Source: Anolis carolinensis
Lineage: Eukaryota
Reading direction: 5' to 3'
Length of the DNA: 64,000 bases
Assembly (NCBI RefSeq): GCF_035594765.1
Contig: NC_085844.1
Location: 13,593,923-13,657,922, forward strand
Below are positions 26,501 through 29,500 of the stretch, piece after piece; position 1 is the stretch's first letter; every line of letters begins with the position of its first letter. A program made the position numbers.

Positions 26501-29500
26501 TAAGTTCATTTTATGCAATTCTATCTTGATTTGTAGTCAATTTTTTTCAATACATTGAGATGCTTTGGTGCTAATTGGTAAATACAGTAATTACTACGTA
26601 ATGTTACCATGTATTGAACTGCTTTTTCTATATATTGTGAAACATGATGTTTTGGTGCTTAATTTGTAAAATCGCAACATAATTTGATATTTAATAGGCT
26701 TTTCCTTAATCCCTACTTATTATCCAACATTTTCGCTTATCCAACGTTCTGCTGGCCCGTTTATGTTGGATAAGTGAGACTCTACTGTACCTTCTTACTT
26801 ACCAAATAAGATATCACTTTAGTGTTCTAAGGTTGTAACCTTGATTAGCTTCTGACACAATAAATAAAGTGTTCTAAGGTTACTTTCTTAAAGAACACTG
26901 AATTGAGGAACAGCAACAAGTTACCTTTTGAATCTTATAACAAGTGAATGAATTACCTAAAAGAAATAACATCCTATGTCCTGCACATGCCTAATCAGTT
27001 AATGCAGTTAGCATTTTGAGACCAAGGGCACTTTCAGAATGAGGAAGGCTTTAGAACAGAATCAAGAACCTCCTCCTATTCAAAACAAATCCAGGAAGTT
27101 GTGATAGATCAGTGTAGCAATGCTTTGTGGTGTACATAGAACATATTTACTCACCAGAGCTAATCAGTAACTCAGAGTAGCACAACCATCGCCACAGAAT
27201 GGTTGAACTTCAAAACAGTATTTTGCATAAGGGAAACCCAAACTGTACTCAGAAACTGCACACAGTATCTTTTTCCCTATAAAATAATTATTTATTTTGT
27301 ATTGTTAGCTGCAGGGTATCCAGTATTAAATAAAACTGTTCCAACACAAAAGGCATATAAGCAACCATGATACAAAAATATGTAGTTTTAGAGACCATCT
27401 AACCATCCAACTCTAACCATCCATCTACATATCAGTTTATGTGTTTTTACTTACAATATTTTAAATTTACAGTAGAAAAAATATATTAAATTTTAAAATC
27501 TAAGTCCTAGTTGTGTGATATTATATATGATTTTTAAATTTCATTTTTGTGGGTATTTTATGTGAGGTCTTTTACATCCAATGCACAAACTAAGGGCCAT
27601 CATTTCTTGCCTGGAGTACCATATGTTCACCACAGCACCACCTACATATAGTCTTCTTCGAAAAAATAAGTAGACTTGGCCATCCCATATGACCAAGCAA
27701 ACCAGAAGTAGTAAAGGATTTTCTTCACAAAAGTCTGTGTGTCACCAAACTCCGATTCGCCGATATGGGCGGTGACTGTGTTCAAAATACATGAAATCTA
27801 TAAGGAAGACGGCTCCAAGTATGACGGCTTTCATTTTAATGTCAAGGTCCATGGGAAACTGGACCCCAATGTCATCAGCATCTGTAAACATTTCCTTCAC
27901 GAAGCCACCCCACAGCTTAGAGATTCTGCCAACATTTGATTCCTCATCCAGTGACATCAGATCGAATGGAATATCTGACCCACAGCTGAATACAATGCAA
28001 GGCCCAACTATTTTAAGTATATCCTGTTGGGCTTCATTTTGGAGAGTGAATTTAGGCAGACAGAGGTCCCAGTTTTGTATAACATACCCAATGGGAGTGC
28101 CAGGTGGGGCCTGGACTTCGAGCTTTTGCAAACAGCAAGGATAACAACACTTGGAGCACCTAAGCGGCCGTGTCAACTGGATGATTTCTTGGCCCAAGTT
28201 GTTGAAGATTTTGATGGTGAACGGCCGTGCTGCTCCCAACCAAAACAGGGTACAGAAGTTGTTCTCCTCCAATGCATAGTACACTCGTTGACCAATGTCA
28301 TTTTTTATTTCGTACCGGTTACATGTTTCAAAGCTAGTTATAATTTCCAGAATCTCAATCCTTTGATGAATCAACAGTCGATCAATCTGTCTTAAATATT
28401 CCAATCCGGGAGGACAGTCAGGCAAAGGAGAAGGAGCAGGCATCCAAGGTGCGTTCTCCAGATGAAAGGGGTAATCTTTGCGTAATCCATAAGGGTTGAT
28501 TTGGGTTTGGTTGGTTGTTGGTTCTAAAGTTCCCAAGTAACGTGGTCCAGATGTATAAGTAGATGGTCTACGTTGTTGTGATGGTGATGGATGCCTAGAT
28601 GTGGTTGCAGGTATATGTGGCTTCATTGGTACACATCAGCATACAGCTGCTCCTTGGGGAGTTACACTGTTCTCTCAGCATGCCTCTTTCTCCTTACCCA
28701 ACTGAAGTTCTTCAATGTTTTCTTGTACTGAGGACCATTCAACCCAATGAGCCTGAAGCCTTTGATGATAGAGCCACCTCACTGGTAGAACTTAGTTCTA
28801 GATATCAATGGGCCCTATTGTTAGGTCACAGAGTTCAGTTGCTACCACTGTTCTCCGGAAGGTGAAAGAGAAGTGGGAGGGACATAGATATGGATCTTCA
28901 TAGACAGATGCAAAACTTAATGCTACAGATATAGCATTAGAGTCCGAGAGAAGTGAAACACACAAATGAATGTGAGTCCTGATCTGGAGTCCAAAACAGC
29001 CTTGAAGCCCACTTCAAAGGGGCTTGGACTGAGAACTGTTTTCCACTGGGTCTTTTGAAGACTGTCATTATTTTGTGTATCAAAAAGGAGCGGGGAAAGT
29101 ACAGGTACTATATAGCCCGGTTAATGAAGTAGATGTGTTCCTGGGCTTTATTTCTTTAACATAATACAACAGAATCCACAAACATGTGATATCTAAACTT
29201 GTTTGTTGATACAATTTGAAGTCAAGAAGGAGGAAAGTGGGTTCTTAGTATCTGCTGGACTTTGGTTCCAGGACCTTTGTGGATACCAAAATCCAAAAAT
29301 GCTCCAGTCCCATTATGTACAATGCTGTCAACGAAGCCAAAACAAAGTTGATCACAACAACATATGTTATAGAACTCCAATATATAGAAGAAGATCTACA
29401 AGCCACTCTAATCACCTTTGCAGAAGCATACAAAAAGCTTGGCCTCTCACTGGACATGGAGAAAACCTACGTGCTCTATTAGCAGGCATCCAATCCCTCT

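What the first reader, a model, noticed from the sequence alone, without database searches (positions are those of the whole stretch)
27742..28626. Intact intronless phospholipid scramblase retrogene inserted into the PHF20L1-TMEM71 interval
Seen: 294 uninterrupted codons covering the whole scramblase domain, clearly diverged from PLSCR1 yet without stops or frameshifts. No residual poly(A) tail or TSD is evident, and there is a downstream AATAAA (27291-27296). Established: vertebrate PLSCR genes are multi-exon and I know of none at this position in human. Inference: an old retrocopy kept by selection. It is head-to-head with TMEM71, or nested antisense in its unlocated first intron, and may borrow its regulatory region.
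Basis: partly seen in the sequence, partly recalled or inferred. Interest (0 to 1): 0.7.

Follow-up and report, generated by a model that had tools for sequence, protein, structure and literature searches.

The report
Intronless scramblase gene in anole lizard
A green anole lizard carries an intact, single-exon copy of a phospholipid scramblase gene between two unrelated genes; it looks like an old reverse-transcribed copy that selection has kept working, which is an ordinary kind of new gene.

Summary
An uninterrupted 294-codon ORF lies at 27742-28626 on the minus strand and is the longest ORF in the window. It covers the whole Pfam Scramblase domain (E 4e-83, profile 1-220 of 221). The window is Anolis carolinensis: 214 of 215 residues match UniProt G1KKS0_ANOCA.

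The ORF sits between PHF20L1 exons (minus strand) and a TMEM71 exon (plus strand). Full-length relatives align to it as one unbroken block, whereas the human PLSCR1 gene is described with 9 exons (PMC9158361). Retro-origin is therefore inferred; no poly(A) remnant or target-site duplication survives.

Its substitutions avoid conserved columns (18 of 126 versus 58 of 98, p=2e-12; terminal branch p=4e-4). The palmitoylation, calcium-binding, NLS-equivalent and C-terminal helix segments are kept, but the proline-rich N-terminus is not recognisable.

It belongs to a well-marked iguanian lineage. A squamate-wide clade is only weakly supported.

The gene is already annotated as a scramblase, and my searches found no paper calling it a retrogene. 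I could not test dN/dS, synteny in other squamates or expression.

The parts
27742..28626 (-). Single-exon coding sequence of a PLSCR1-family protein (294 codons plus stop)
   Evidence: ORF. Pfam Scramblase E 4.1e-83. 214 of 215 residues identical to G1KKS0_ANOCA. All 7 relatives tried aligned to it as a single tblastn HSP.
28444..28626 (-). N-terminal 61 residues: disordered, fast-evolving, not recognisably proline-rich-domain-like
   Evidence: pLDDT below 50 for residues 11-55. 10 P in 61 residues and no PPxY. Homologous to the Sceloporus N-terminus including the start Met (z 9.5, 0 of 500 shuffles reach it), but not significantly to Pogona or to the A. sagrei clade-A N-terminus. Searched alone, it gave no hit at E<=10.
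27781..28443 (-). Scramblase / Tubby-like beta-barrel core (residues 62-282)
   Evidence: Pfam profile 1-220 of 221. AF2 model with 12 strands and a C-terminal helix, and high pLDDT over the core. Foldseek top hits are Tub, TULP1 and At5g01750.
28132..28158 (-). Cysteine-rich (palmitoylation) motif, residues 157-165
   Evidence: Aligned to murid PLSCR1 positions 191-199. Coordinates are from the PMC12329543 Fig. 1 legend, mapped through Arvicanthis P0014. All six cysteines of the murid segment are kept.
27904..27933 (-). Segment equivalent to the non-classical NLS, residues 232-241
   Evidence: Aligned to murid 266-275. Leu at residue 238 is a signature of the iguanian lineage.
27850..27885 (-). 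EF-hand-like Ca2+-binding segment, residues 248-259
   Evidence: Aligned to murid 282-293. 8 of 12 residues are identical to the murid sequence, and the acidic positions are kept or increased.
27784..27840 (-). C-terminal hydrophobic helix (tail anchor), residues 263-281
   Evidence: Aligned to murid 297-315. AF2 helix 263-285.
27291..27296 (-). Candidate polyadenylation signal AATAAA
   Evidence: The only occurrence in the 1242 nt after the stop, at 445 nt downstream. Its use is not shown.
7262..7804 (-). Context: two PHF20L1 Tudor/MBT exons (within ORFs 7601-7804 and 7262-7399)
   Evidence: Pfam MBT and Tudor_2 among 94 minus-strand ORFs. PDB best hits are PHF20L1, ahead of PHF20. The exons were searched one by one and not joined.
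35480..35881 (+). Context: TMEM71 coding exon (ORF bounds)
   Evidence: PF15121 E 3.6e-31, profile 39-109 of 152.

Best explanation
This is a functional, single-exon member of the PLSCR1 family in Anolis carolinensis. It most likely arose when a spliced PLSCR1-type mRNA was reverse-transcribed and inserted between PHF20L1 and TMEM71. That happened at least as early as the common ancestor of iguanian lizards, and probably earlier, in the toxicoferan stem.

Selection has kept the Tubby-like barrel, the cysteine-rich acylation motif, the EF-hand-like calcium segment and the C-terminal tail-anchor helix. The N-terminal proline-rich domain has decayed into a short, disordered, fast-changing tail.

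The predicted product is a palmitoylated, tail-anchored, calcium-sensitive protein on the cytosolic face of membranes. Reviews report that the proline-rich domain is needed in vitro for calcium-driven oligomerisation and lipid mixing, so I infer that this protein is a poor scrambler on its own. It more likely acts as a membrane-tethered adaptor or modulator of PLSCR1-type functions.

Shown here: the ORF, the domain, the motifs, the fold model, the neighbours, the constraint and the lineage. Inferred: retroposition, expression, localisation and activity.
For: - Intact ORF with a full-length domain.
- One unbroken HSP from Met to the last codon for all 7 relatives tried, including a full-length 306-aa gecko protein. 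No other scramblase piece in the window scored better than E 0.16.
- Human PLSCR1 has 9 exons, coding from exon 2 to exon 9 (PMC9158361 and PMC12003403, passages read).
- The flanking genes are unrelated: PHF20L1 and TMEM71.
- Constraint: the protein differs from the majority residue of 148 non-clade-B proteins at 18 of 126 conserved columns versus 58 of 98 other columns (Fisher p=2e-12). On the terminal branch, 3 of 19 changes fall in conserved columns (p=4e-4).
- In substitution-only neutral simulations the frame stayed open in 22%, 2.4% and 0.3% of 1000 runs at 8.5%, 20% and 34% amino-acid divergence.
- All five mapped functional segments are retained.
- AF2 core model (mean pLDDT 78.1, pTM 0.76) with Tubby/TULP1/At5g01750 as the best structural matches.
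- Lineage: NJ bootstrap is 100% for the Anolis trio, 99% with Sceloporus and 72% with Pogona. There are 18 signature columns for the iguanian five, 9 with Elgaria added and 5 for the toxicoferan eight.
- The start codon and N-terminus are shared with Sceloporus.
- The role of the proline-rich domain is taken from a PMC12329543 passage.
Against: - No poly(A) remnant and no target-site duplication.
- No squamate parent gene structure, and no orthologue's gene structure or synteny, could be examined. Neither intronlessness in other species nor the date of the insertion is shown.
- No codon-based dN/dS was possible, because only proteins of relatives were available.
- There is no expression evidence. 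No CpG island or located promoter lies near the 5' end.
- The lineage evolves about 3.5 times faster than the canonical paralogue (path length 0.31 versus 0.09). It has changed 18 of 126 conserved columns, against 0-3 in five clade-A proteins. Constraint is therefore relaxed.
- The squamate-wide 'clade B' has only 71% bootstrap support and 0 signature columns. It could be a long-branch artefact.
- In Tiliqua the short and the canonical paralogues sit on contigs of identical length, possibly the same chromosome. In Pogona the contig lengths differ.
Confidence: 0.7

Rival explanations
1. It is a dead processed pseudogene whose frame happens to be still open.
For: No expression evidence. No promoter-like CpG island. 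Evolution is faster than in the canonical paralogue. On the terminal branch alone, an open frame is not improbable: 22% of neutral runs kept it.
Against: Substitutions avoid conserved columns both over the whole history (p=2e-12) and on the terminal branch (p=4e-4). All five functional segments are kept. At the observed 34% divergence only 0.3% of neutral runs stay open, before counting indels. All 15 squamate relatives of the clade are predicted as whole proteins.
Confidence: 0.05
2. It is a DNA-level duplicate rather than an RNA-mediated one. It either lost its introns secondarily, or is a gene whose coding part is one exon but which has further non-coding exons and an inherited promoter.
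For: No poly(A) remnant or target-site duplication. In Tiliqua the two paralogues may share a chromosome, since their contigs have equal length. UTR introns cannot be excluded without transcripts.
Against: All coding introns are absent at once. The full-length protein aligns in one block from Met to the stop, whereas 8 coding exons are described for human PLSCR1 (PMC9158361). The flanks are unrelated genes and there is no second scramblase piece in 64 kb. Simultaneous precise loss of every coding intron is what retroposition produces.
Confidence: 0.1
3. It is a working retrogene, but its role is nuclear or regulatory, like the role described for mammalian PLSCR2, rather than at membranes.
For: The DNA-binding-domain-equivalent and NLS-equivalent segments are retained. 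It lacks a recognisable proline-rich domain. PLSCR2 is also described as non-scrambling and nuclear (PMC12329543 and PMC6104169, passages read).
Against: The cysteine-rich acylation motif and the hydrophobic C-terminal helix are intact. Reviews tie these to membrane anchoring (PMC12329543).
Confidence: 0.15

Closest known systems
Canonical vertebrate PLSCR1 (and the squamate 'PLSCR1/2-like' clade A, e.g. Anolis sagrei 327 aa, Pogona 313 aa)
   Same: Same Pfam domain over its whole length. The acylation, NLS-equivalent, calcium and tail-anchor segments are aligned and kept. Identity is 57-67%. The predicted fold is Tubby-like.
   Different: Single coding exon, against 8 coding exons described for human PLSCR1 (PMC9158361). 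Different genomic neighbours. No recognisable proline-rich domain and no PPxY. About 3.5-fold longer branch. 18 of 126 conserved columns changed, against 0-3.
Short squamate 'phospholipid scramblase 1-like' proteins (Sceloporus undulatus 300 aa, Pogona vitticeps 283 aa, Anolis carolinensis 240 aa, Anolis sagrei 233 aa)
   Same: These are its nearest relatives, at 60-81% identity. They share 18 signature columns. The N-terminus and start Met are shared with Sceloporus.
   Different: The 240-aa A. carolinensis protein is a second, 80%-identical paralogue, not this gene. Which A. sagrei gene is the orthologue is unresolved (bootstrap 49%). Their gene structures and positions could not be seen.
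Mammalian PLSCR2
   Same: A PLSCR1-type paralogue whose N-terminal domain does not support scrambling. It is described as nuclear and non-scrambling in vitro (PMC12329543 and PMC6104169, passages).
   Different: In my tree the mammalian proteins group apart from the squamate ones, so the origin is independent. Human PLSCR2 lies in the chromosome 3q24 cluster with PLSCR1 and PLSCR4 (PMC9158361); that it is a tandem, multi-exon gene is recalled. The resemblance is in function only.
Tubby / TULP1 C-terminal domains and Arabidopsis At5g01750 (LURP-one-related)
   Same: Best structural matches of the model: 1s31 at E 7.6e-4, plus 3c5n, and 1zxu with TM 0.58 on the target.
   Different: 7-10% sequence identity. 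These are fold relatives, not family members. No solved scramblase turned up by sequence.

Membership tests
Phospholipid scramblase family (Pfam PF03803; PLSCR1-type) | Full-length Scramblase domain above the curated score | tested here: met
   278.5 bits against a cutoff of 25.4; profile 1-220 of 221.
Phospholipid scramblase family (Pfam PF03803; PLSCR1-type) | Cysteine-rich palmitoylation motif | tested here: met
   Residues 157-165 align to murid 191-199 with all six cysteines kept. Acylation itself was not tested.
Phospholipid scramblase family (Pfam PF03803; PLSCR1-type) | EF-hand-like Ca2+-binding segment followed by a C-terminal hydrophobic helix | tested here: met
   Residues 248-259 and 263-281 align. 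AF2 helix 263-285. Calcium binding was not tested.
Phospholipid scramblase family (Pfam PF03803; PLSCR1-type) | N-terminal proline-rich domain with PXXP/PPXY motifs. Reviews describe it as poorly conserved within the family (PMC6104169, PMC12329543). | tested here: not met
   10 P in 61 residues and no PPxY. No significant similarity to the A. sagrei clade-A N-terminus (z 0.6) and only a weak one to Pogona clade A (z 2.4). This bears on PLSCR1-like activity, not on family membership.
Phospholipid scramblase family (Pfam PF03803; PLSCR1-type) | Ca2+-dependent lipid scrambling activity | not testable with these tools
   Biochemical property. The review notes that even PLSCR1's direct activity is debated (PMC12329543).
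Retrogene (functional processed copy of a spliced mRNA) | Coding sequence lacks all the parental introns | tested here: inconclusive
   The copy is unbroken from Met to the stop for 7 of 7 relatives. The parental introns are known to me only from reviews of the human gene (9 exons; PMC9158361, PMC12003403). No squamate parent gene could be read.
Retrogene (functional processed copy of a spliced mRNA) | Sits away from the parent, among unrelated genes | tested here: inconclusive
   The flanks are PHF20L1 and TMEM71, and there is no other scramblase piece in 64 kb. The position of the parent in this genome is unknown.
Retrogene (functional processed copy of a spliced mRNA) | Poly(A) remnant and target-site duplications. 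These are supporting hallmarks that erode with age. | tested here: not met
   None found. This is expected for a copy at least as old as Iguania, so it weighs little either way.
Retrogene (functional processed copy of a spliced mRNA) | Open frame maintained by purifying selection | tested here: met
   Column-conservation tests p=2e-12 and p=4e-4. Neutral simulations. Codon-based dN/dS was not possible.
Retrogene (functional processed copy of a spliced mRNA) | Transcribed | not testable with these tools
   No transcript data were available. The old UniProt model is homology-built, and its first 9 residues come from another frame.

The most novel reading that the evidence does not exclude
PLSCR1 is an interferon-induced antiviral gene whose essential interferon response element lies in its transcribed first exon (PMC9158361, passage). 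A full-length retrocopy could therefore have carried that element with it. The most novel reading is a lizard- and snake-specific, interferon-responsive, proline-rich-domain-less PLSCR1 retrogene lineage. Its fast-changing N-terminus would reflect an arms race with viruses, making it a new or altered restriction factor or a modulator of the parent.
Probability: 0.12. Interest if true: 0.6.

Novelty: new member of a known kind. Interest (0 to 1): 0.3.

Why it matters
Retrogenes are a well-known route to new genes, so this is one more example rather than a new principle. The protein is also already in the databases under a generic scramblase name.

It has some value for three reasons:
- The parent family includes an interferon-induced antiviral factor (PMC12003403 abstract; 10.1101/2024.02.16.580725, abstract in the search listing).
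- This copy has kept the membrane-anchoring and calcium parts while shedding the domain that reviews link to scrambling and partner binding.
- It has persisted with two copies in Anolis.

That makes it a natural 'domain deletion' variant for comparing what the barrel does without the proline-rich arm. It is also a marker for dating gene gain in squamates.

The finding also corrects an old gene model that starts in the wrong frame and misses 80 residues.

Tried and rejected
The second member of the G1KKS0 cluster and any RefSeq name stayed unseen.
I scanned stop-free ORFs in batches instead.
- TMEM71's first exon: 0 families among 124 of the 132 plus-strand ORFs listed for 20.0-35.5 kb. The 7 ORFs antisense to the scramblase ORF and the known TMEM71 exon were left out. 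An N run at 35116-35253 lies just upstream of the located exon and was left alone.
- The N-terminus searched alone gave 26 candidates, none at E<=10.
- PDB by sequence gave no scramblase.
- A squamate-wide origin was tried and downgraded: 71% bootstrap and 0 signature columns.
- 'Same contig' reasoning for Podarcis lilfordi was dropped once P0121 proved to be another clade-B-like protein.
- Literature searches:
  - 'phospholipid scramblase'+'retrogene' gave 2 papers, neither on a vertebrate PLSCR retrogene.
  - 'PLSCR'+'intronless' gave 4 papers, none about a PLSCR gene, judged from the listings.
  - 'phospholipid scramblase'+'Anolis' gave 0 papers.
  - 'scramblase'+'retrocop' gave 2 papers, on dinoflagellates and on plant TLP genes.
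  - One search gave nothing useful.
  - Searches were badly posed: min_terms let PLSCR1 drop out, so they say nothing.
- Supplementary tables of retrogene catalogues, which might already list this gene, were closed.
No other lizard genome could be read.
- Promoter and interferon-element motif scans were not run, because I would have had to supply the motifs from memory.
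Full report
OBSERVATION. The ORF exists as described. It runs from 27742 to 28626 on the minus strand, starts with ATG and has 294 codons plus a stop. It is the longest of the 31 ORFs of at least 110 aa in the window. An in-frame stop lies four codons before the ATG, and the ATG has an A at -3. Pfam places residues 62-282 on positions 1-220 of the 221-position Scramblase profile (PF03803, E 4.1e-83, 278.5 bits against a cutoff of 25.4). No solved structure matches by sequence; the two hits, at E 0.3 and 0.82, are chance-level. 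The AATAAA at 27296-27291 is real and is the only one in the 1242 nt after the stop.

SOURCE AND EXISTING ANNOTATION. The protein search found 469 proteins at E<=0.001 among 1206 candidates, and the best 120 were listed. The top hit is UniProt G1KKS0_ANOCA (Anolis carolinensis, 'Phospholipid scramblase', 223 aa). It is identical at 214 of 215 aligned residues, so the window is green anole, not human, and the gene is already annotated. That old model is faulty. Its first nine residues are read from another frame of the same DNA (28572-28598), and it skips residues 1-80 of the ORF.

SURROUNDINGS. Among 94 stop-free minus-strand ORFs between 284 and 20989 (94 of the 120 listed), one matched Pfam MBT and one matched Tudor_2. 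The two exons, inside 7601-7804 and 7262-7399, hit PDB chains of PHF20L1 best (E 6.5e-32 and 1.2e-15), ahead of PHF20 (6e-17 and about 1e-9). A TMEM71 exon lies on the plus strand in 35480-35881 (PF15121, E 3.6e-31, profile 39-109 of 152). A second TMEM71 match and leucine-rich-repeat exons (51134-51364 and 54638-54859, plus strand) follow. The order is therefore PHF20L1 (-), scramblase (-), TMEM71 (+), then an LRR gene (+).

These exons were searched one at a time. I built and searched no joined spliced model. The scramblase ATG is 6.9 kb from the located TMEM71 exon and about 8 kb upstream of the CpG-rich kilobase 20001-21000 (CpG o/e 0.95) that probably holds the PHF20L1 promoter. The kilobases from 26001 to 32000 have CpG o/e of 0.20-0.33. 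TMEM71's first coding exon was not found among 124 plus-strand ORFs between 20.0 and 35.5 kb. An N run at 35116-35253 lies just before the located exon and was left as it is. Whether the gene is intergenic or antisense inside TMEM71's first intron is therefore open.

IS IT A PROCESSED COPY? Seven relatives were run against the window by tblastn, including full-length clade-A proteins of gecko (306 aa), Pogona (313 aa) and Anolis sagrei (327 aa). Each aligned as a single block to 27745-28626, with E from 1e-112 to 6e-136. Two of them aligned from their first residue, and all aligned to their last. Every other HSP in the window had E>=0.16. The coding sequence is thus unbroken, and no upstream proline-rich exon is detectable.

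Reviews state that the human PLSCR1 gene has nine exons, with coding sequence from exon 2 to exon 9 (PMC9158361 and PMC12003403, passages read). I could not read any squamate parent gene, so 'all parental introns absent' is an inference from family knowledge. No poly(A) remnant exists: the best 30-nt window has 19 A, and there is no run of seven A within 1.19 kb. Of 12 short direct-repeat families, only one pair brackets the ORF (17 nt, 82%), and it has no A-tract beside it. I take it for chance. At the age inferred below, these hallmarks are expected to be gone.

RELATIVES AND AGE. The first NJ tree used 119 of 120 sequences; one was dropped for gaps, and some unnamed proteins were included. 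A second tree used 45 named sequences, 224 core columns and 200 bootstraps. Both place the protein with a second A. carolinensis protein (240 aa, 80% identical) and an A. sagrei protein (233 aa, 81%), with bootstrap 100. Sceloporus (300 aa, 70%) joins next at bootstrap 99, then Pogona (283 aa, 60%) at bootstrap 72.

Signature columns, defined as one residue in at least 75% of the group and at most 10% outside it, number 18 for these five iguanian proteins. They number 9 when Elgaria is added and 5 for the eight toxicoferan proteins including two snakes. A wider 'clade B' of 15 squamate proteins (adding lacertids, Rhineura, Salvator and skinks, but no gecko) has 71% bootstrap support and no signature column. 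It may be real, or it may be long-branch attraction among fast paralogues.

The firm statement is an age of at least the iguanian ancestor. The nearest other Anolis protein is 80% identical, so this is not a recent copy of a near-identical parent. Contig lengths give mixed hints. In Pogona the short and canonical paralogues sit on contigs of different length. In Tiliqua they sit on contigs of identical length.

SELECTION. Only proteins of relatives were available, so codon-based dN/dS could not be computed. Instead I asked whether substitutions avoid columns that are conserved in 148 non-clade-B scramblases. The protein differs from their majority residue as follows:
- at 4 of 63 columns conserved at >=98%;
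- at 14 of 63 columns conserved at 90-98%;
- at 18 of 43 columns conserved at 70-90%;
- at 40 of 55 less conserved columns.

That is 18 of 126 against 58 of 98 (Fisher p=2e-12). On the terminal branch, 19 changes were inferred by parsimony against the Anolis paralogues and Sceloporus, and only 3 fall in the 126 conserved columns (p=4e-4). A neutrally drifting sequence should hit the columns evenly.

In substitution-only simulations of the ORF, 4.4% of substitutions create stops. The frame stayed open in 22%, 2.4% and 0.3% of 1000 runs at 8.5%, 20% and 34% amino-acid divergence. Constraint is nevertheless relaxed compared with the canonical paralogues. They changed 0-3 of the 126 conserved columns and have about 3.5-fold shorter paths (0.09 against 0.31).

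WHAT THE PROTEIN KEEPS AND LOSES. I took the mouse PLSCR1 domain coordinates from the Fig. 1 legend of PMC12329543 and carried them through the equally long Arvicanthis protein P0014, which is an approximation. On that basis the ORF retains:
- the DNA-binding-domain equivalent (residues 62-93);
- the cysteine-rich acylation motif (157-165, all six cysteines of the murid segment);
- the NLS-equivalent (232-241);
- the EF-hand-like calcium segment (248-259, 8 of 12 residues identical to the murid);
- the C-terminal helix (263-281).

An AlphaFold2 model built from a 59-sequence alignment has mean pLDDT 78.1 and pTM 0.76. It shows twelve strands and a helix at 263-285, and residues 11-55 have pLDDT below 50. 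Its best PDB matches are Tub (E 7.6e-4), TULP1 and Arabidopsis At5g01750 (TM 0.58 on the target). That is the Tubby-like barrel expected for scramblases; the expectation is recalled from the literature.

The first 61 residues have 10 prolines and no PPxY. They are clearly homologous to the Sceloporus N-terminus, including the start Met (z 9.5; 0 of 500 shuffles reach the score). They are not significantly similar to Pogona (z 0.9) or to the A. sagrei clade-A proline-rich domain (z 0.6), and only weakly to the Pogona clade-A one (z 2.4; 8 of 500). Searched alone, they found nothing at E<=10.

MECHANISM. Reviews tie the cysteine motif and the C-terminal helix to membrane anchoring. They tie the calcium motif to function. 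They tie the proline-rich domain to calcium-driven oligomerisation and in-vitro lipid mixing, and PLSCR2, which lacks a working one, is described as non-scrambling (PMC12329543 and PMC6104169, passages). I therefore predict a palmitoylated, tail-anchored, calcium-sensitive protein that does not scramble well by itself and acts as an adaptor or modulator. This is inference; nothing about expression, localisation or activity is shown.

PLSCR1 is interferon-induced through an element in its untranslated first exon (PMC9158361, passage). A full-length retrocopy could have brought that element along. I did not scan for it.

NOVELTY. The gene is in UniProt, and its relatives are in RefSeq under generic names. 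None of my four relevant literature searches found it, or any vertebrate PLSCR gene, described as a retrogene. Two other searches were badly posed. Supplementary retrogene tables were closed and could already list it. I rate it a new member of a known kind, and of modest interest.

UNCHECKED. Also unchecked are other lizard genomes, transcripts, and the closed collections metagenome contigs and viral contigs. The retroelement-like stretch at the right end of the window was only described.

Noticed in passing
window 63195-63998 (-): Open 267-codon piece with Pfam Tf2-1-type SH3 (E 1.4e-17) and integrase C-terminal matches. It runs off the window's end. This is the tail of a Ty3/gypsy-type LTR-retroelement integrase, in a CpG-rich kilobase. 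Described only.
   Followed up: partly
window 48707-49453 (-): 248-aa ORF with a weak zf-RVT match (24.1 bits, below the 27.5 cutoff). It is probably a retrotransposon ORF fragment. The kilobase 48001-49000 is CpG-rich.
   Followed up: no
window 29660-30049 (+): 129-aa ORF about 1 kb upstream of the scramblase ATG, on the other strand, with no Pfam match. From recall it resembles the C-terminal tail of non-LTR retrotransposon ORF2 proteins.
   Followed up: no
window 51134-51364, 54638-54859, 56715-56978 (+): Leucine-rich-repeat exons (Pfam LRR_4 and LRR_9) and a charged coiled-coil-like exon downstream of TMEM71. From recall of the mammalian gene order, this would be LRRC6/DNAAF11.
   Followed up: partly
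window 20001-21000 and 23001-24000: CpG-rich kilobases (o/e 0.95 and 0.68) upstream of the PHF20L1 exons. The first is the likely PHF20L1 promoter. 22.8-23.3 kb holds GC-rich repeats with long ORFs on both strands and no Pfam match.
   Followed up: no
window 28572-28598 (-): The UniProt model G1KKS0_ANOCA takes its first nine residues from another reading frame here and then jumps to residue 81 of the ORF. This is an artefactual mini-intron in an old homology-built model.
   Followed up: yes
window 35116-35253: The only N run in the window (138 bases). It sits just upstream of the located TMEM71 exon. It was left unfilled and may hide TMEM71 sequence.
   Followed up: no
P0003 (Anolis carolinensis, 240 aa) and P0121/P0050 (Podarcis lilfordi): The short scramblase lineage has further duplicated. 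There is a second 80%-identical copy in A. carolinensis, and there are two copies on one contig in P. lilfordi.
   Followed up: partly
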